From a virus (taxonomy: Duplodnaviria; Caudoviricetes), in the IMG/VR virus record IMGVR_UViG_3300036798_000409, positions 1 through 38,145 of that record: a stretch of DNA of 38,145 nt, one strand, 5' to 3'. Position 1 is the stretch's first letter. Each line of letters begins with the position of its first letter. The translations under genes and the position numbers were made by a program. Of the stretch, positions 8,774 through 25,534 are shown in pieces. A model generated the notes under the pieces. It was not told where the DNA came from, did no database searches, and saw only the letters and a list, made by a program, of their open reading frames with translations.

Positions 8774-8950
8774 CTACTCTCCCTCGTCCTTTGCGGCCTT
8801 ACCCCGCTTCGGCGGCTCATCGGACTCGGCGAGGGCGCGCGTAGCAAACGCCGCCGCCATCTCTTGCATCGCCTGTTCGAGCTGGGCGACGCGGCCCGCG
8901 AGCAAGATGATGCCGCGCTCGCAGTCGGCAATCCGGTCAGCGACTAGCAT
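8774..8950 (-). CDS. Small coiled-coil protein
   Basis: Not in track. ATG overlaps the capsid stop (TGATG); MLVADRIADCERGIILLAGRVAQLEQAMQE...DEGE, 58 aa. Confidence 0.6.
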   Translation of the reverse strand: MLVADRIADCERGIILLAGRVAQLEQAMQEMAAAFATRALAESDEPPKRGKAAKDEGE

Positions 8951-10314
8951 CAGCCGAAGGTCCCTGTGTTGGAGGCGCTGCTTTCGATTCGGGCCATGAA
9001 CTGGTTGTTAAGCAAAACCCAGCCCTCGAAATACTTGTAACCGATCACCCGCAATTGGTTGAGAGGATCAGACTTATCTGCCTCGAACAACCGCGTCCAG
9101 GTCAGCTCTTCGAGCTTCAGCGCGGCGAATGCTCGCTGCCCGAAGACGAAGGTCGGGAACACCGTCACGCCGGTTGCGGGGGCCGCGGGCGGCACCTGGA
9201 AGAGACCGACGCCGGTCAGCAGGACCGTGGTCGACGGCGGCAGTAGGATCGCTTGACCTGCGTAGGGGCCGACGGTCGGGGCCGCGCTGGAGTTGGTCGT
9301 CGCCAGGTTGATGATCGTGGTCGTGGCGCTGATGCCGCTGGAGATGTAGACGGCATAGGTGAACCCGGTCGTCGACGGCGTGGTGACCGAGATCCCGCCG
9401 TTGGGGCCGGTTACGGAGACGCTCGCCGATACTTGGGTGATGCGGCTCTCGTAAAAATTCTGCGTATCCCAGCCGGTCACCTGAACGTAATAGGTGCCGG
9501 TCGCCAGCGCGCCGCCGGTCGTGCCCGTTCCGGTGACAGCGGCGACTCCGACGAAGCTCGGGATCAGGTTACTTTCGCAGAAGTGCATTCCGCGCCAGTA
9601 ACCCGTCTCGTTGATGTAGAGCCGGGTGATGTCCGAGTACGACCACGCGGTGACGACCGTCGGGTTGTTCGCAAAGTCGTTGAGCACGAGCGGCGAGGCG
9701 ACGGCCATGTAATGTTCGTGCGTCCGCGGGCTCTTCGTCTCGCCGCCCTTGACGTTGTACGAAATGCTGCGCTGCACCGTCTCGCCGGTCTGGCCCGACC
9801 ACATCGGCGCACCGAGCTGCTTTAGGTTCGCGACCGTGCGGTTCACAGTGAACGGGTCGAGCACGTCGCCGGCCAGGACGTTGGCGCGCGAGCCGCGCTG
9901 CGCCACGTAATTGACCTGCGTACCCGCCATCAGCGCGTTGAAGCCGTTGCGTTCGCGGAGCTCGGCCACTTGCATGCCGAGCCGCTCGGTCGCCTCGTGC
10001 AGCAAATCGTGTTGGATCGTGATCGTGGCGACGTCGGTAAACGTCACTTTGTCGCCCCACTGGAGCGCGACGCCCGTCACCTGACTGATCGTCAGCGTCT
10101 CGCCGATCGGCGGCACGCCCTCGGAGAGCGGAGCGGTCGGCAGCGGGAAGCGGTTGAACCGGGTCGCCGTCCACGACGTGCCCATGTGCTTGGGCATCGT
10201 CTTCTTGTCGGCGAATTGGTAAACGACCAGAAATCGCTGGGCGACCTCCAACGTCTCCTTGTCGAGAATGCGCTGGACGTCTGCTTGGAATTGGCCGGAT
10301 GAATTGGTCGCCAT
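8950..10314 (-). CDS. Major capsid protein (N4-gp56-like) with inserted Ig/Fn3-like domain
   Basis: FADKKTMPKHMG, PLSEGVPP, QWGDKVTFTD and C-terminal DKSDPLNQ...IGYK motifs; follows portal and scaffold. Confidence 0.85.
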   Translation of the reverse strand: MATNSSGQFQADVQRILDKETLEVAQRFLVVYQFADKKTMPKHMGTSWTATRFNRFPLPTAPLSEGVPPIGETLTISQVTGVALQWGDKVTFTDVATITIQHDLLHEATERLGMQVAELRERNGFNALMAGTQVNYVAQRGSRANVLAGDVLDPFTVNRTVANLKQLGAPMWSGQTGETVQRSISYNVKGGETKSPRTHEHYMAVASPLVLNDFANNPTVVTAWSYSDITRLYINETGYWRGMHFCESNLIPSFVGVAAVTGTGTTGGALATGTYYVQVTGWDTQNFYESRITQVSASVSVTGPNGGISVTTPSTTGFTYAVYISSGISATTTIINLATTNSSAAPTVGPYAGQAILLPPSTTVLLTGVGLFQVPPAAPATGVTVFPTFVFGQRAFAALKLEELTWTRLFEADKSDPLNQLRVIGYKYFEGWVLLNNQFMARIESSASNTGTFG

Positions 10315-19697: not shown

Positions 19698-20018
19698 ATG
19701 CACATGAGAGCAATCGTTGCGGCCGCGTGCCTAATCCCTCAGCTGGCGTTTGCCGGGTCGGGATCGATGGTGAGCCACATCTATCCGAACAGCATCTATG
19801 CGCCGAATTGCGTTGCGTTCCAAACCGTTGGTGACGGCACTTCTTACGGGGTGTCGGTGAATGACCCGGCAGCCGCGGTAATTGCGGCGTCGCTGAGTCA
19901 AAGCGAAATCACCGGCCGGCCGGTTTACTTCGATGTGAACAACAACGTGGGGGCGCCCTTCCACGCCGCTGATTGCACGGCGGGAGGAATAAATTACATC
20001 GTTGATTTCGCTGAATAA
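19698..20018 (+). CDS. Secreted protein
   Basis: GAGGAG SD; MRAIVAAACLIPQLAFA signal peptide; two Cys in the mature part. Confidence 0.65.
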   Translation: MHMRAIVAAACLIPQLAFAGSGSMVSHIYPNSIYAPNCVAFQTVGDGTSYGVSVNDPAAAVIAASLSQSEITGRPVYFDVNNNVGAPFHAADCTAGGINYIVDFAE

Positions 20019-20019
20019 T

Positions 20020-20538
20020 ATGACGAAGCTTCGTCAACTTGCTGCCATCGGCCTGGTTGTCACGAGCTGCTGGCAGCCACGGCCGGCGCACGCTTTTCTG
20101 CCGATCGTGCCGTTCATCGCCGCTCAACCCTTGGTCGCCGCTTTCCTCGGCGTCGTGACGGCGACTTATGCCGCCATCATCTACGGGATAGACGTCGGGA
20201 TCAGCAACATGGGGCCGAACACCTACACGTTCAGCGGCGCCTTAAAGCTCCCAGAAAACGCCGGCGGGACCGCGCCCTGCCCCAACGGCAGCTTGGCGGG
20301 CAACCCAAATTTGGGTGTGCTGCTCGAGTTGGCGGCGATCAACTGCAGAGCGACTCTGGAGTTTGGCTTGACGCCTGGGCCGGGTTGCTCCTTGAGGGTC
20401 GAATCGGCAAGCCTGCCGGGCGTGTGCATGGTAGACGGGACGGTCAACAACGCGTCGAAGGCTCAGTGCCAGGCGCTTGTGACAAGCTGCAATGCTATAT
20501 GGCCGGGGCAGTGCACGGGGAATTGTCCTCAGGAATGA
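20020..20538 (+). CDS. Secreted or membrane Cys-rich protein
   Basis: Signal-like N-terminus ending AHA, hydrophobic segment, eight Cys in the C-terminal half. Confidence 0.6.
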   Translation: MTKLRQLAAIGLVVTSCWQPRPAHAFLPIVPFIAAQPLVAAFLGVVTATYAAIIYGIDVGISNMGPNTYTFSGALKLPENAGGTAPCPNGSLAGNPNLGVLLELAAINCRATLEFGLTPGPGCSLRVESASLPGVCMVDGTVNNASKAQCQALVTSCNAIWPGQCTGNCPQE

Positions 20539-20543
20539 ATGCG

Positions 20544-20620
20544 GTCGCGGTGGAGCAGCTTGGTAGCTCGCCAGGCTCATAACCTGGAGGTCGGCGGTTC
20601 GAATCCGCCCCGCGCCCCCA
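20544..20620 (+). tRNA. tRNA with CAT anticodon, initiator-like body, atypical acceptor stem
   Basis: D arm TGGAGCAGCTTGGTAGCTCG, anticodon arm CCAGG-CTCATAA-CCTGG, T arm GGCGG-TTCGAAT-CCGCC, encoded CCA. Confidence 0.9.
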
Positions 20621-20639: not shown

Positions 20640-20675
20640 GGGCGGTGCGGCCGTGTATGGCTGTGCCGCCCTTTT
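20640..20675 (+). terminator. Intrinsic terminator after tRNA
   Basis: GGGCGGTGCGGCCG-TGTA-TGGCTGTGCCGCCC (with GU pairs) followed by TTTT. Confidence 0.6.
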
Positions 20676-20693: not shown

Positions 20694-20987
20694 ATGGCGG
20701 TGCAAAACTTTACGACACAGTTCACTCCGGCTGTGGCTGGGTTCACGTTGAGCAACATGACGATCACCAACGGTGCGGTCGGGACGGTGGTGGGCCTTCT
20801 CACCGCCGTCTTCAACGACCCTACCGTGATGACGGTGGCAGTGTCGCTGGGCGGGCCGGATGCGGCGAAGTTCAGCCTCTCGTCAGCTACGCTCACACCT
20901 TCGGCGAGCGCTTGCAACCTGCAAGTGGCACAGGCCATCTCGGCCTCGGGAACATTCTCGATCAGCGCTTTGGGGACCACGCCATGA
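20694..20987 (+). CDS. Single cadherin/Ig-like domain protein
   Basis: GAGGA SD; GAVGTVVGLL...SLGGPDAAKFSLS...GTFSISA resembles bacterial cadherin-like repeats. Confidence 0.65.
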   Translation: MAVQNFTTQFTPAVAGFTLSNMTITNGAVGTVVGLLTAVFNDPTVMTVAVSLGGPDAAKFSLSSATLTPSASACNLQVAQAISASGTFSISALGTTP

Positions 20988-21304
20988 CCGGGCAAGTTTG
21001 CGCCCAGCCGTTCACGCTGACGGCACATGTTGGCCCCTCGCCGGACGGGACTTACATCTGTCAGCCCAACGGGACGCTGACGATCGCCTCCGGCACGGTA
21101 TCGTGGGGAGCTCCGACGACGGCCACGTCTGCTGGCATTTACCTGAACGGCGCGGCCCTGGACGGTGGTTTGGGCAGCCAGCTGGTGGTGCAGAATGGGG
21201 GCCAGCTGTACACTCTGGGAACAGACCATAATTGGTATGTTTTCGGGTCCGGCGGCCATTGGGTGCTTGGCACTCCGAGCCCGGTTCCCCCCGCTTGCCC
21301 ATAA
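20984..21304 (+). CDS. Tag-bearing beta-domain protein (one SPDG domain)
   Basis: ATGA-coupled; starts MTGQVCAQPFTLTAHVG; 106 aa. Confidence 0.7.
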   Translation: MTGQVCAQPFTLTAHVGPSPDGTYICQPNGTLTIASGTVSWGAPTTATSAGIYLNGAALDGGLGSQLVVQNGGQLYTLGTDHNWYVFGSGGHWVLGTPSPVPPACP

Positions 21305-21471
21305 TCACCGCAACGCCGTTCACGCTCACGGCGCAGATCGATGTGGTGGAAGAGGCGCCGATAGCGCTTCTCGGGCTTGGCTGCGGAATCTGGGTAGCGC
21401 AGAAGATCGAGGAGAACCCGATTGTTCCACGTCGGCGGCTTCTCGGTCTTGAATCGAAGGACGACCCATGA
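21295..21471 (+). CDS. Tag-bearing small protein with hydrophobic segment
   Basis: IITATPFTLTAQI...IALLGLGCGIWVA...NPIVPRRRLLGL; start TTG 21295 or ATA 21301; stop overlaps the next ATG. Confidence 0.55.
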   Translation: MPIITATPFTLTAQIDVVEEAPIALLGLGCGIWVAQKIEENPIVPRRRLLGLESKDDP

Positions 21472-24119
21472 CCATTCTCACCGCGACGCCGTTCGTTGTA
21501 ACGGCGCAGATCGGCATGAGCTCATCTTCGACTCCGGGGTCGCCGTGGCCGATAGGTGTGCCGCCAAACACCCCCGACAGCTTAGTCCAACACACGAGTC
21601 ACGAGGTGTGGAATCAGCCGAGCGCGGGCTACTACGCCAGCGGCGGCCAGGTGATTTTCAATGCCGGCCAGAACGCTGTGATGAGCGGCCAGGTCACCAT
21701 AAACGCGGCTCATTGGAGCTACGGCGGCGGCATAGCACCAGTCGACAACCTCCAAGGCTACTGGCTCATGGATGGGGCGCCGTTTTCTCCGTTGATGACC
21801 GGCCAATCGACGGACGGAGGATCTTTCGCCTACACCTTCGACACGTCGCTGTATCCTGATGGCCCTCATGTATTCACCTTCCAGGTTGTCAATTCCGAGG
21901 TGATTTCTCTCGGACACTACGCAACGAGGGCGATATACATTGTATTTGCCAATCACGGAGCAGCCCCCGACGCTCCGGTGAGGGTGCCGCTGGCGAACTC
22001 GTGGATGGAAGGAGTCCCGAGCGTTCCTGATTGGCACACGTTCACATCCAAGATCCTGCCGCAACACGTCAACGCCGCGATCCCATTTACGCCGGTTTTC
22101 TGTCCCCCGGACCCGGTGAATGGTGCCACGTTGGGCGAATTGGTCATCGAGCCGTTGCGCGGCGCGCCAGGGGCAGGCCCCGGCCGAACGCACGGCCCAC
22201 GCTGGACGATGGGCGACACCGGCGTCGGCTTGTTGCCGGAGGGCGACCTATATTCAGGCAACATCTCTTTGGATGCCGATGGCTATAATTTCAACACCGT
22301 CATGCTCGAGCTCGGGCGCGACGGGGATCGCTTCAACGCTCAGATCTCCGCGCTGACCACCTATGTCGACACCCTCGACGGCACGGGCTGGTGGGGCGTC
22401 AGCATGGACGGCCGCCTGTTCAAGCGCACCTTCGATGGTCACGTCACGACCGTCGCCGGCCGAATATTGGCGCCGAACACCTTTGCTTGGGACCCCCAGG
22501 CCTATCCCTATCTGTCCGAGACTCAAAACTCGGACGCCAGGCTGAACGGGCGCGCGCAATTCATCGGCGATTTCTCCGCTACTCCCGGTGGCAACATGGG
22601 CGGGTGGTGGCTCAAGAATGCCGTCGATCTCTGCGTCGACCCGCGAAACCACGCGATCGTTTACCTCTCGCTCCAGGTGCCGAGCGTCATCGTCAAGGTC
22701 GACACCTCGGTGAGCCCGGCGAGAGTGACGCTCTATGCCGGCACGCTTCAGACCAACCTCGACAACAAGGGAGGCGTGGGCTACGTGGATGGCCCGGCGC
22801 TCTCAGCTCAATTCAGCGAGCAGGCCGGGATCTGCATGCTGTCCGACGGCAGGATGATCGTCGCGGACAGCAACAACGCCGCGATCCGCATGGTTTCGGC
22901 CGATGGATCAACGGTCTCGACCGTCGCAGGCGGGACGGCCAGCTCGCAACCGGCGCCGCCGAGCAGCGACAATCCGCCGACCCGCTCCCCGACCGGCACC
23001 GTCCCTGTGGCGTCCAATTTTGTCGCCTACCCGTATTGGGTCAGGCTGACCTCGCACGGCACGATAGTCCTGATCGAGCAGTACAGCCTGCAGGTTCGCG
23101 AGCTCGACCTCGCGGCGAGAACGCTGCGCTACATCGGCACATTTGGCGACACGCCCGCAAACTCGAACAGCGGGTTTTGGGCTGCGTTGGAGGTCGATAG
23201 CACGGCCACGAACGGCCCCGTGGATCGCATCTATCTGGCCGTGACGGCCGGCGACGTTCCGATGTGGCGTATGGATCTCTCTGGCGCGAACAGCCAGGGA
23301 TGGTTTGGCATCGGCGCGACTGGTCTGTTGAGCGCGTGCGCCGATCGGTCATACACGCCAAACGGTTATTTCCCGTGGATGTTTGCTGTGCACCGGACCC
23401 AGTGCCGGGCGATCGCGACTTGGATCGACGTGGGAACGGTAGAATATCGTGGGCAACCGTATACGCACGACCCTATAGGCGACAACAATAATGCTCAGTA
23501 CGAGATTTGGTGCGCGGGTTATTACGTCTTCATCCTCGGCACCGCCCAATGTTTCCCCTACGGCGCGCGGCCCAGCTTCCTGGCGCTCTACGGCAGCACC
23601 GGGGTAAGCTACCTTGGCCTTTCGGCCACCAACAACTCATTCGAGGAGATCGCCCAGCTCACCCAGGCTGAGCGGTATGCCTTCTACCAGGCGGGGATGA
23701 TCGGCTCGACGCCGCGTCCCGAGCTCACCGGCAACGACCTGCGCAACCTCGACTTCTATGTGATGCGCAACACGTACGCCGGCTCACAGCCCACCCCGTT
23801 CACCCCCGGCCCCGACGATCCTGATACAGGAAACTATCCTCAGCTCTTCGGTGTTGCCGGCACCCGTCTCTCGGCGACGTCGGTGCAGGTTACCTGGACC
23901 ACCGACAAGCCCACGATCGGCCTGGCTGCGGCCACGCCACAAAACGTCACGACCCAAGCGTGGGCCTACGGGCCGTGCAGCCCACTCGAGACGGCGTACG
24001 GGACCAACCACAGCGTCGTGATCTCTGGCCTGCCGCCAAATGTTCAGATCAACGTCACTGCTATGTCGAAGGATGTGGCGGGGAACAGCTCGTACTCTTC
24101 GAATGTCGCCATCCCATGA
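21468..24119 (+). CDS. Large adhesin-like protein: tag, Ig-like domain, NHL-repeat propeller, Fn3-like C-terminus
   Basis: FDTSLYPDGPHVFTF (Ig-like); GYVDGPALSAQF...MIVADSNNAAIRMV...VSTVAGG (NHL); VQVTWTTDKP...HSVVISGL...SKDVAGN (Fn3-like). Confidence 0.8.
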   Translation: MTILTATPFVVTAQIGMSSSSTPGSPWPIGVPPNTPDSLVQHTSHEVWNQPSAGYYASGGQVIFNAGQNAVMSGQVTINAAHWSYGGGIAPVDNLQGYWLMDGAPFSPLMTGQSTDGGSFAYTFDTSLYPDGPHVFTFQVVNSEVISLGHYATRAIYIVFANHGAAPDAPVRVPLANSWMEGVPSVPDWHTFTSKILPQHVNAAIPFTPVFCPPDPVNGATLGELVIEPLRGAPGAGPGRTHGPRWTMGDTGVGLLPEGDLYSGNISLDADGYNFNTVMLELGRDGDRFNAQISALTTYVDTLDGTGWWGVSMDGRLFKRTFDGHVTTVAGRILAPNTFAWDPQAYPYLSETQNSDARLNGRAQFIGDFSATPGGNMGGWWLKNAVDLCVDPRNHAIVYLSLQVPSVIVKVDTSVSPARVTLYAGTLQTNLDNKGGVGYVDGPALSAQFSEQAGICMLSDGRMIVADSNNAAIRMVSADGSTVSTVAGGTASSQPAPPSSDNPPTRSPTGTVPVASNFVAYPYWVRLTSHGTIVLIEQYSLQVRELDLAARTLRYIGTFGDTPANSNSGFWAALEVDSTATNGPVDRIYLAVTAGDVPMWRMDLSGANSQGWFGIGATGLLSACADRSYTPNGYFPWMFAVHRTQCRAIATWIDVGTVEYRGQPYTHDPIGDNNNAQYEIWCAGYYVFILGTAQCFPYGARPSFLALYGSTGVSYLGLSATNNSFEEIAQLTQAERYAFYQAGMIGSTPRPELTGNDLRNLDFYVMRNTYAGSQPTPFTPGPDDPDTGNYPQLFGVAGTRLSATSVQVTWTTDKPTIGLAAATPQNVTTQAWAYGPCSPLETAYGTNHSVVISGLPPNVQINVTAMSKDVAGNSSYSSNVAIP

Positions 24120-25126
24120 TCATCACGGCGACGCCTTTCACTGTGACGGCGCAGATCGGTTCTTCGGGTATCTCTCCGGACGGCTCTTCGCTATTCTTTC
24201 CATCAACGGACGTCCTGACAAACAAGCAAGGGACATGGTCGGTCGGCGATGTCTATGCGGAGGACGACGGAGCTGGTCACGCAGTTTTTCGCATAAAGCT
24301 CAACGGCCGATATGTTGCGGAGATCCAAAACGTACCAGGCGCTGGGTTGGATTTTGGAGTCGTTGCGGTTTCTAGTCTGTGGGTAGACAACGGCGGGTGG
24401 GTTTACGCTTTTGTCAGTGGCGACAACGGCTATGCGATGTACGTCAATGCCGGCTGGGTCGCGAGCGGCGACACGTCCGGTAGGGCGGCGCCCGCAGCCG
24501 GGTATATGCTCTCGCACTTTGCGCCGCCGTACACGAGCTCACCCGATGGCACCAGGATCACGGCCCCCGCCACGAATACGGTGACGAACCAGGACGGCGT
24601 GTGGGGGATCACCAATGGCGTCCTCACCCTGAACGGCGTCGGGATCGTCGACAACCGCGGTGGCAACAACGACAGCTATCCACCGAATGCCTTCCAGGCT
24701 TTGGCGATCGAGATCAACAGTCACGGAACGGCGTTTGTGCAGGCGTCGGACTCGACGTGGCGCAGCTTCGCCGGTTTGGCGGCCAACCCCTCGGCCGGAC
24801 CTACCGCATCCCCGGTCCCCGTGAGCATGACGATCACGCCGCTCAATGGGCAACTCATACCGACCGCGCCCCCGGGGTCTCCGCGGGGAACGAAAGTGGC
24901 AACGCTGACCGTCACGATGAGCGACGGCTCAGTCGTCACTCCGACGACGGCCGAGGTAGCTTTGGTAGCCGACCAAGGGTACCCCGGCGGCCTCGCTTTT
25001 GAATATGTTTCGCCAAATATTCAAAGCAACGGCGTTCCGTTGACGCCAGGCTATGACACATTTCTCGTGCAAGTGACAATAAATGGCACCTCGTTCTGTC
25101 TAGGAACGCTTGTGGGAACCAGCTAA
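24116..25126 (+). CDS. Tag-bearing protein with two SPDG domains and C-terminal cadherin-like domain
   Basis: ATGA-coupled at 24116; MIITATPFTVTAQIG; PRGTKVATLTVTMSDGS; 336 aa. Confidence 0.75.
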   Translation: MIITATPFTVTAQIGSSGISPDGSSLFFPSTDVLTNKQGTWSVGDVYAEDDGAGHAVFRIKLNGRYVAEIQNVPGAGLDFGVVAVSSLWVDNGGWVYAFVSGDNGYAMYVNAGWVASGDTSGRAAPAAGYMLSHFAPPYTSSPDGTRITAPATNTVTNQDGVWGITNGVLTLNGVGIVDNRGGNNDSYPPNAFQALAIEINSHGTAFVQASDSTWRSFAGLAANPSAGPTASPVPVSMTITPLNGQLIPTAPPGSPRGTKVATLTVTMSDGSVVTPTTAEVALVADQGYPGGLAFEYVSPNIQSNGVPLTPGYDTFLVQVTINGTSFCLGTLVGTS

Positions 25127-25534
25127 CTCCGAGACCGTGATGACGAGCTTGGGCTGCTTGCCGTAGACTTTGCGGGGCCGCTTGTATTCGACCACTTGGG
25201 CGTCGTCCAGCCAGACCACGCCCTTTAGTGCGTCTTTGGCCTGCTTGATGTAGTTGTCGAGGTCCGGCTTGCTGGTCGGCCGGATTAGGCCGAGGATTGC
25301 GGCGTTTTTCTTTTTCATCGACCACGAAGCTGGGATTTTGCGCTCCGCGAGGAGCTCCATGACGAGCGCACCCTCGAACGGCTCGCGACCCGACATTTCC
25401 TGCTGGGCGATCAGCCGCAGTGCCGCATGCTCGTTTTTCTGCTTCGACGGCGTGTAGCGGCGCCCTGCTTTGGTTTGCCGATGTGCGAACGGCACAGGCT
25501 CGCCGAGCAGCACGATCGTAACCGGGTCGGTCAT
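25100..25534 (-). CDS. rusA: RusA-family Holliday junction resolvase
   Basis: AGGAGAG SD before ATG 25534; GEPVP, KPDLDNYIKQAKDALKGVVWLDDAQVV motifs. Confidence 0.9.
   Translation of the reverse strand: MTDPVTIVLLGEPVPFAHRQTKAGRRYTPSKQKNEHAALRLIAQQEMSGREPFEGALVMELLAERKIPASWSMKKKNAAILGLIRPTSKPDLDNYIKQAKDALKGVVWLDDAQVVEYKRPRKVYGKQPKLVITVSELAGSHKRS

What the first reader, a model, noticed from the sequence alone, without database searches (positions are those of the whole stretch)
20694..25126. Five-gene cassette with a shared N-terminal strand tag: candidate donor-strand 'plug-in' fibre system
Seen: four consecutive ORFs begin with nearly the same peptide: QVCAQPFTLTAHVG (20984), IITATPFTLTAQID (21301), ILTATPFVVTAQIG (21468), IITATPFTVTAQIG (24116). 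Codons vary synonymously, which points to protein-level selection. The first gene is a 97-aa cadherin-like domain that stops at GTFSISALGTTP, where such domains usually have one more xxPFTLTV-type strand, and it starts with a similar strand (AVQNFTTQF). Inference: the 97-aa subunit has an open groove, polymerises by donor-strand complementation and accepts interchangeable cargoes (small beta domain, membrane anchor, NHL propeller, SPDG-cadherin protein). None has a Sec signal, so virion fibres or a lysis-released matrix are plausible.
Basis: partly seen in the sequence, partly recalled or inferred. Interest (0 to 1): 0.85.

Follow-up and report, generated by a model that had tools for sequence, protein, structure and literature searches.

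The report
Plug-and-socket cadherin cassette in soil phage
A soil phage carries a small cadherin-like protein that is predicted to lack its last strand, followed by four genes whose products all start with the same short strand, so they would likely snap into it like plugs into one socket, and related bacteria and phages carry exported versions of the same arrangement.

Summary
The shared N-terminal peptide is real: four copies, each at the start of a coupled ORF, and nowhere else in this podovirus-like genome. The 97-aa gene 1 is a cadherin-like repeat. A middling model and most profile alignments end it at strand F; pairwise tests were undecided. The tags (PFTxTAQI) match the G strand of the nearest intact subfamily (PFTQxETI). 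In relatives the same cargoes are fused behind complete or tandem cadherin-like repeats. In the order of a Stellaceae MAG, and in its phages, exported 'sockets' stop exactly after strand F. They are often followed by exported proteins that start with a G-like strand. One genome has both fused, and 'signal + G + A-F' subunits mirror gene 1. A signal peptide between stop and strand argues for assembly in trans. Best reading: chaperone-free donor-strand plug-in (about 0.55). Polymerisation, virion location and the gene 3 anchor are untested; gene 3 starts at ATA. The scan noted the exported pair earlier on other DNA (e1-6230222). One socket with four plugs and no signal peptides was not found in the literature searched.

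The parts
20694..20987 (+). g1, 97 aa: N-terminal strand (residues 1-12) plus cadherin-like strands A-F; predicted 'socket' lacking strand G; no signal peptide
   Evidence: HMM of nearest intact subfamily E 9e-5 (P0002: 1.6e-8), hhalign prob 95%; AF2 pLDDT 63; fold matches stop about 20 residues short of the end of several single-domain chains; stand-alone 95-aa homologs P0002/P0035
20681..20685 (+). Shine-Dalgarno-like GAGGA before g1
   Evidence: sequence
20984..21304 (+). g2, 106 aa: tag plus one small beta domain of the unnamed 'SPDG' type also found in g5; GGGGA at 20972-20976
   Evidence: hhalign to g5-family alignment, prob 96%, E 1e-9
20984..21034 (+). tag of g2 (MTGQVCAQPFTLTAHVG)
21301..21471 (+). 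g3, 56 aa from an ATA codon: tag plus short hydrophobic stretch; may be weakly translated or a relic
   Evidence: no Pfam or PHROG hit
21301..21342 (+). tag of g3 (IITATPFTLTAQID)
21468..24119 (+). g4, 883 aa: tag plus cargo with an NHL-like propeller and a C-terminal FN3-like domain; AAGGA at 21457-21461
   Evidence: weak Pfam NHL and Pur_ac_phosph_N hits; family in soil metagenomes, MAGs and phages
21468..21515 (+). tag of g4 (MTILTATPFVVTAQIG)
   Evidence: lies where the last strand of a fused cadherin-like domain lies in P0048, 78% identical
24116..25126 (+). g5, 336 aa: tag, two SPDG domains and a complete cadherin-like domain (residues 232-336, nt 24809-25123)
   Evidence: AF2 pTM 0.80; Z 9.1, rmsd 2.4, 90 aligned to desmoglein-3, many other cadherins at Z 8-9
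24116..24160 (+). tag of g5 (MIITATPFTVTAQIG), unstructured in the monomer model
   Evidence: pLDDT under 50 for residues 1-16
20640..20675 (+). terminator-like hairpin (14 pairs, then TTTT) between the tRNA gene and g1
   Evidence: folding z -3.4
20544..20620 (+). tRNA gene, anticodon CAT, upstream neighbour

Best explanation
Gene 1 encodes a cadherin-like repeat that is predicted to stop after strand F, and genes 2-5 encode separate proteins whose shared N-terminal peptide likely supplies the missing G strand in trans, so one socket would take four interchangeable plugs without a chaperone. Shown: the tags, the coupled ORFs, the lack of signal peptides, the fusion of the same cargoes behind complete cadherin-like repeats in relatives, and exported socket/plug gene pairs of the same domain family. 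Inferred: that g1 lacks G, that the tags bind it, and that g1's own N-terminal strand lets it chain head to tail. Such a chain would rebuild, from a 294-nt gene, the tandem-repeat stalk that relatives encode in one long ORF, with a cargo capping the growing end. Most likely purpose (inferred, weak): display of sugar- or surface-binding domains outside the cell after assembly in the cytoplasm and release by lysis, free or on the virion.
For: (1) Nearest intact subfamily of g1 has G = SPFTQ(A/P)ETI. The tags read TPFT(L/V)TAQI with the same spacing and score 14.6-17.6 against its G segments but 3.1-6.5 against its F segments (8 domains). (2) P0048, 78% identical to g4, has a cadherin-like domain fused in front, its last strand at the tag position. 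L071 has five tandem repeats, g4 and g5 in one ORF; L001, L002, L007 and L032 have one or two complete repeats before the g4 cargo. (3) Of 89 distinct domains of this family located in fetched loci and proteins, 44 stop within 7 residues of the end of F (one further row is a mis-call; sample biased towards sockets). (4) In 11 of 15 loci of the type 'signal + N-terminal domain + socket', the next ORF has a signal-like leader and then a G-like strand such as STSGNLAINVT or SISQNFAITVT, before unrelated cargoes. (5) L139 is a natural fusion: socket, G strand and cargo in one ORF. (6) 'Signal + G + A-F' subunits with g1's layout occur in 7 of 244 genomes of that order (6 were seeds of the profile) and in 11 viral loci with 6 distinct sequences. 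Their profile aligns end to end with each L071 repeat cut at the F-G turn (E 8e-9 to 6e-7). Several are followed by tagged cargo (L150, L160, L177, L203); the L160 tag contains LTAQI. (7) The AF2 model of g1 aligns to 1kb5_B 1-97 of 117, 9lxg_A 2-77 of 96 and 2cry 14-99 of 122, leaving the last strand unmatched; g5's complete domain reaches the ends of cadherin chains. (8) The g5 tag is unstructured in its own protein. (9) g1, g2 and g4 have their own Shine-Dalgarno-like sites, and the 95-aa homologs are also stand-alone.
Against: Pairwise global alignments do not decide whether g1 ends at F or G (17-20 versus 18-19 of about 38 intact domains). One of four hhalign runs placed g1's last strand on G. 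The g1 model is middling (pLDDT 63, pTM 0.49, 2 sequences), its best Z is 6.5, and one target (7daa_A) was covered whole. Single-tag shuffle tests are weak (P 0.02-0.14; P 0.08-0.57), and against the g5-type profile the tags fit F as well as G. g1 matches the exported-subunit profile only weakly (E 0.5; hhalign P 0.006), so the layouts may be parallel inventions. 18 of 27 socket-ending loci show no tagged neighbour. L100 has a socket followed by SPDG domains with no G in cis, and L165 has a G-like N-terminus after a complete domain, so six-stranded domains may be stable alone. No second copy of this five-gene cassette was obtained as DNA.
Confidence: 0.55

Rival explanations
1. g1 is a complete small cadherin-like domain, or a stable six-stranded one. 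The tags are left-over G strands copied with gene fragments when a long modular adhesin gene was split and partly duplicated; they dock nowhere, or on some other partner.
For: F-versus-G test undecided; one global alignment puts GTFSISAL on G; many sockets have no tagged neighbour; g3 has an ATA start, no ribosome site and an internal repeat-like look; g4 and g5 are fused without a tag in P0008, P0011, P0014, P0019 and others.
Against: Tag differences are concentrated at third codon positions (13 of 21). The tag was added in front of g5, whose relatives have none. Exported socket/plug pairs and a natural fusion exist. The model lacks a G equivalent.
Confidence: 0.22
2. Ribosomes shift -1 at the CCA-stop junctions, so g1 is completed in cis by the g2 strand and longer read-through chains are made, like frameshifted Ig-like extensions of phage structural proteins.
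For: All four junctions are CCA + stop with the next ORF in -1. The baseline is 4 of 36 ATGA overlaps in related loci and 2 of 8 others in the window. J2-J4 read C CCA, which allows CCA-to-CCC re-pairing; this would explain the ATA of g3. g1 plus the g2 start reads like an intact F-G hairpin. Four of six viral exported subunits also end CAG CCA TGA over a second socket gene. Frameshifted Ig-like extensions are known in phages (PMC5009743, passages).
Against: The Pro-stop cases in those passages are +1 at CCC_UGA, not -1 at CCA. The g1-g2 junction (G CCA TGA) cannot re-pair, and the homologs end in Ser. No stimulator 3' of any junction (z -0.2 to -1.1). Read-through leaves the tags of g3-g5 without a domain to complete. 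Terminal Pro is common in sockets with no overlap and in close g4 relatives. g2 and g4 have ribosome sites.
Confidence: 0.1
3. The 45-nt tag repeats are recombination points: deletion between copies, helped by the phage's ERF-type recombinase, moves a different cargo next to g1, like orphan toxin-tip cassettes.
For: Direct repeats at every cargo start; ERF and DUF3799 genes lie 1-3 kb away.
Against: Only 73-80% identity, with synonymous divergence that erodes DNA homology. Every cargo has its own coupled start. No tag-to-tag joint in the one run laid (contigs only, weak). It still needs the tag to meet g1 across a stop codon.
Confidence: 0.08
4. The tag is a docking peptide for a virion protein or other scaffold rather than for g1.
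For: Short conserved N-terminal docking peptides are known for phage tailspikes (recalled, not checked). None of g1-g5 has a signal peptide.
Against: The tag resembles the G strand of g1's own family. The domain profile found no clear second socket-like ORF in the window. The cassette is on the strand opposite the structural genes.
Confidence: 0.05

Closest known systems
Chaperone-usher pili (Fim, Pap): donor-strand complementation and exchange (established knowledge; named as a comparison in PMC9674648, passages)
   Same: Incomplete Ig-like fold lacking strand G, completed by an N-terminal strand of another chain; several minor subunits share a related N-terminal extension; subunits with a strand but no free groove end the chain, as the cargoes here would.
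   Different: Cadherin-like rather than pilin family; no signal peptides; no chaperone or usher gene beside the cassette; phage-encoded; the plugs carry large unrelated cargoes and have no socket of their own.
TasA/TapA fibres of Bacillus subtilis (PMC9674648, passages)
   Same: Polymer in which an N-terminal strand completes the neighbour's beta-sandwich; an accessory protein (TapA) has an N-terminus similar to the donor strand.
   Different: Camelysin-derived fold, secreted, Gram-positive; TapA is proposed to prime the fibre, whereas the tagged proteins here would cap it, and there are four.
L-ENA endospore appendage with L-BclA tip (PMC11362473, passages)
   Same: Small cluster of shaft subunit, anchor and tip cargo; the cargo docks through its N-terminus by mimicking subunit docking; assembled without export.
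   Different: Jelly-roll rings and disulphides; the paper found no sequence homology between the cargo and subunit N-termini.
Ig-like extensions added to phage capsid or tail proteins by ribosomal frameshifting (PMC5009743, passages)
   Same: Phage, Ig-like domain, overlapping frames, proline codon before a stop.
   Different: The cases seen extend a structural protein by a whole domain, with +1 at CCC_UGA for Pro-stop sites; here the break is inside a domain, the frame is -1 and the strand is repeated four times.
Tandem bacterial cadherin-like repeats in soil alphaproteobacterial surface proteins (L071, L002, L007)
   Same: Same domain family, same g4 and g5 cargoes.
   Different: One polypeptide there; here one repeat cut at the F-G turn and separate tagged cargoes.

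Membership tests
Chaperone-usher pilus | Subunits with Sec signal peptides | tested here: not met
   No basic N-terminus or leader-like hydrophobic stretch in g1-g5 (hydropathy scan; no dedicated predictor run)
Chaperone-usher pilus | Chaperone and usher genes in the cluster | tested here: not met
   Neighbours are a tRNA gene, two small hypothetical ORFs and rusA; no such hit among 27 proteins in Pfam or 25 in PHROGs (not every ORF was scanned)
Chaperone-usher pilus | Ig-like subunit lacking strand G | tested here: inconclusive
   Model and most profile alignments say A-F only; pairwise test undecided
Chaperone-usher pilus | Free N-terminal extension with alternating hydrophobic residues | tested here: met
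   Tags of g2-g5; g5 tag unstructured in the monomer
Donor-strand polymer (any kind) | Strand of one chain bound in the groove of another; filament formation | not testable with these tools
   Needs binding assays and electron microscopy
Cadherin domain (PF00028) | Pfam match above cut-off | tested here: not met
   No cadherin family hit for g1 or g5 at E 0.05; Atlas look-alikes of g1 are cadherin clusters at 0.78-0.82, a lead only
Cadherin domain (PF00028) | Seven-stranded cadherin fold | tested here: inconclusive
   Met for g5 232-336 (Z 9.1); g1 alone gives general Ig-like matches, best Z 6.5
Cadherin domain (PF00028) | Calcium-binding motifs (DxD, LDRE, DxNDN; motifs recalled) | tested here: not met
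   Not present in the g1 sequence
Frameshifted phage Ig-like extension | Known shift site (CCC_UGA +1, or slippery heptamer with stimulator) on a structural gene | tested here: not met
   Junctions are CCA + stop, frame -1, no 3' structure; g1 is not a capsid or tail gene
Frameshifted phage Ig-like extension | Fused product detected | not testable with these tools
   No RNA or proteome data
Orphan-cassette switching (Rhs/CDI type; features recalled) | Near-identical DNA homology between orphan starts and the expressed gene | tested here: not met
   73-80% over 45 nt among the tags, none to the 3' end of g1
TasA/camelysin or ENA (DUF3992) fibres | Family fold or Pfam match | tested here: inconclusive
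   No such Pfam hit; not among the listed fold matches

The most novel reading that the evidence does not exclude
A new class of chaperone-free 'split-cadherin' fibres: a one-repeat subunit polymerises by donating its N-terminal G strand, and any protein that starts with the 14-residue strand caps the fibre. It would be a natural plug-in display system, exported in soil Alphaproteobacteria and their prophages and moved to the cytoplasm in this phage, where one socket serves four cargoes on virions or in lysis-released material.
Probability: 0.33. Interest if true: 0.88.

Novelty: new variant of a known kind. Interest (0 to 1): 0.7.

Why it matters
Donor-strand assembly is known from pili, TasA and archaeal filaments. 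It was not found described for cadherin-like repeats or for a phage-encoded, signal-less set in the six literature searches made (open-access library only). If right, it shows how a long repetitive adhesin gene can be replaced by one short repeat gene plus tagged cargoes, with stalk length and tip chosen at assembly. It gives a testable role to many 'truncated' cadherin-like and DUF4082 proteins in soil Alphaproteobacteria. It would also offer a small natural peptide-tag and socket pair for protein display. All parts are small and can be tested in E. coli.

Tried and rejected
Complex prediction of g1 (3-row alignment) with the g4 tag (30 residues, 4-row alignment): no answer, score 0.03 against a mark of 0.32, controls not folded; not used either way. 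No DNA of a second g1 locus: viral scans with g1, g4, a CCA-stop + tag pattern and the terminase found nothing. A metagenome scan with the g1 alignment found nothing, nor did tblastn against cultured phages or a search for longer g1 homologs (weak). A short tag pattern in viral contigs gave 4 matches, none at a gene start with this layout. Genome searches with the g1 alignment: 1 of 244 (intact domain, L074) and 3 of 401 (one genome with classical cadherin repeats, two hits broken by stops); none in 4 handles. Foldseek of the g1 model found nothing at E 0.001 in PDB or BFVD. The G-strand matrix test was weak: tags 0-4.3 against a median of -4.6 for 33 other phage N-termini, shuffle P not significant. 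About four of 23 'donor' and five of 21 control anchors hit the wrong ORF, so its donor-versus-control P is not used; donors were re-read. BLASTP of g2 against the tagged SPDG protein of L203 was not significant. No RNA holder listed. No sigma-70-like promoter before g1 and no RNA family other than the tRNA. A small hairpin within the tag DNA follows from the P-F..T-A codons and is broken in g5; rejected as a signal.


Full report
Setting. The window is a whole 38,145-nt virus record held in a soil metagenome run. It has a terminase, a portal-like gene, a major head protein and tail genes on the minus strand, plus ERF, DUF3799, RusA and a GH25 lysozyme, which reads as a podovirus-like phage (inference). 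The five genes lie on the plus strand between a tRNA gene with CAT anticodon (20544-20620) and a convergent rusA. A terminator-like hairpin (20640-20671, z -3.4) sits 10 nt before g1's ribosome site.

Observation. The ORFs and peptides are as reported. The tag pattern occurs 4 times in the six frames of the window, always at these starts, and not in the related loci held. Differences among the g3-g5 copies fall 4, 4 and 13 of 36 at the three codon positions. One contig of the listed run matches 20768-25500 without a difference (likely the source sample). g3 starts at ATA and has no ribosome site; g1, g2 and g4 have one; g5 has none. All four upstream genes end in CCA + stop.

What g1 is. g1 has two stand-alone 95-aa homologs, 71-72% identical and ending in Ser. 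A genome search led to its nearest intact relatives, cadherin-like domains in genomes of the order of a MAG titled Stellaceae. Their profile matches g1 at E 9e-5 and P0002 at 1.6e-8; hhalign gives 95%. Where g1 ends is the key question. Global profile alignments to the two broad domain sets end it at the F-G turn (positions 80 of 94; 85 of 105). One alignment to the narrow set put its last strand on G. Pairwise scores split about 19 to 18. The AF2 model (pLDDT 63, pTM 0.49) has six long strands. It aligns to 1kb5_B 1-97 of 117, 9lxg_A 2-77 of 96 and 2cry 14-99 of 122, though it covers 7daa_A whole and the best Z is 6.5. By contrast g5's C-terminal domain is a complete cadherin fold (Z 9.1, rmsd 2.4, 90 aligned). 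I put the odds that g1 lacks G at about 0.7.

What the tag is. The G strand of the nearest subfamily is SPFTQ(A/P)ETI; the tags are TPFT(L/V)TAQI. They score three to five times higher against G than against F segments for three tags and about twice for g4's (8 domains; shuffle P 0.02-0.14 each). A broader matrix did not discriminate. In the g5 model the tag is unstructured while the rest folds (pTM 0.80, 20 sequences); relatives of g5 have a signal peptide or the g4 module in its place. P0048, 78% identical to g4, carries a cadherin-like domain in front whose last strand occupies the tag position. L071 has five tandem repeats, g4 and g5 in one ORF; L001, L002, L007 and L032 have complete repeats before the g4 cargo. 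g2 is one SPDG domain like those of g5. So this phage has separated what relatives fuse, and put the same strand in front of each piece.

An exported counterpart. The loci of the nearest relatives showed the same logic. ORFs with a leader, DUF4082 and a cadherin-like domain stop right after strand F, and the next ORF begins, after its leader, with a G-like strand. A socket profile matched 41 of 244 genomes of that order and 3 of 401 sampled from the class; these matches include intact domains. Of 27 socket-ending loci, 9 are directly followed by such a protein and 18 are not. Counting only the type with a leader, an N-terminal domain and an ...ATQ-like end, and adding loci, it is 11 of 15. Several lie in polysaccharide gene clusters. 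L139 has socket, G strand and cargo fused in one ORF. Proteins with g1's layout, leader + G + A-F, occur in 7 of 244 genomes (six seeded the profile) and in 11 viral loci with 6 distinct sequences. Their profile aligns from position 2 to 91-92 with each L071 repeat cut at the F-G turn. Tagged cargoes follow them in L150, L160, L177 and L203. A cleaved leader between a socket's stop and the strand makes fusion by frameshift implausible there (inference; leaders judged by eye and hydropathy). Against: g1 matches the exported-subunit profile only weakly, many sockets lack a tagged neighbour, L100 has a socket with no G in cis, and L165 has a G-like start after a complete domain.

Mechanism. Most likely the five proteins are made by translational coupling, and each tag completes g1 as strand G. 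In tandem cadherin repeats G runs straight into the next A strand, and g1's 12-residue N-terminus sits in that position. A g1 chain would therefore rebuild the tandem stalk, with a cargo closing the open end (structural reasoning, untested; the N-terminus alone is not a significant G match, P 0.65). All four plugs would compete for the same end, so g3 cannot both anchor a chain and let it carry cargo. With no leaders, assembly would be cytoplasmic and release by lysis. Virion attachment is open: no other socket or plug was seen in the genome. Cargo function is inferred only from the company it keeps: DUF4082, pectate-lyase-like and polysaccharide loci in relatives, and an SPDG-like fold in a GH5-containing cluster (lead only).

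Rivals. Frameshifting: CCA + stop at 4 of 4 junctions exceeds the 4 of 36 baseline and would explain the ATA. But the Pro-stop cases in PMC5009743 (passages) are +1 at CCC_UGA, the first junction cannot re-pair, homologs end in Ser, no stimulators were seen, and terminal Pro is common in sockets. Recombination cassettes: the repeats are short and eroding at silent sites, and no joints were seen in contigs. Relic or complete-domain reading: kept at 0.22.

Known systems and novelty. It works like chaperone-usher pili, TasA/TapA (PMC9674648, passages) and L-ENA with its tip protein (PMC11362473, passages), but fails the membership tests for them. Searches for donor strand + phage + cadherin-like (0 papers), donor strand complementation + bacteriophage + Ig-like, DUF4082 + cadherin, two partial-match searches and split cadherin-like domain in trans listed nothing describing this. 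Those hits were seen as listings only, no supplements were read, and subscription journals are not covered. Verdict: a new variant of donor-strand assembly, well supported as a pattern and unproven as a binding event; interest 0.7.

Noticed in passing
window 20544-20620: The CAT tRNA has an initiator-like D arm but a paired 1-72 position, a 2-71 mismatch and only two G-C pairs at the foot of the anticodon stem (features recalled). Its identity (fMet, Met or Ile2) is unclear, which is curious beside the ATA start of g3.
   Followed up: partly
window 20640-20675: Strong terminator-like hairpin with only four T, just before g1's ribosome site: the cassette may depend on partial read-through or antitermination.
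   Followed up: partly
window 19698-20538: Two small ORFs upstream of the tRNA (106 and 178 aa) with leader-like hydrophobic N-termini and several cysteines; no Pfam or PHROG hit.
   Followed up: no
L001 3880-9080 and P0004, P0006, P0007, P0021, P0026, P0027: In other phages the g4- and g5-like proteins have Tat- or Sec-like leaders followed by a short shared motif (ARLLxP.G in four neighbouring L001 genes; xRGG in others): possibly a different shared N-terminal tag.
   Followed up: no
L196-L199, L202-L206, L142, L150: Exported G + A-F subunits overlap (CCA TGA or CCG TGA) a second socket gene that has neither a clear leader nor a G strand; how the second protein is exported is unexplained.
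   Followed up: partly
L107-L121: A conserved exported protein (QELP.GGG start, proline-rich linker, C-terminal socket) in about 13 genomes, with no tagged neighbour.
   Followed up: no
L152, L154-L159: Small, partly lipoprotein-like proteins with a two-cysteine cadherin-like domain that also ends at strand F (..CTVTAIK).
   Followed up: no
L203 2890-3522: One protein carries leader, G-like tag, SPDG domain and a C-terminal socket, so it could be both plug and socket.
   Followed up: partly
window 21521-21747 and 22713-23465: Short contigs of the same run show diverged relatives of g4 in the sample.
   Followed up: no
window 8950-10314: The major head protein (454 aa) has an insertion of about 100 residues rich in Thr/Gly relative to its PHROG family, possibly an Ig-like domain.
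   Followed up: no
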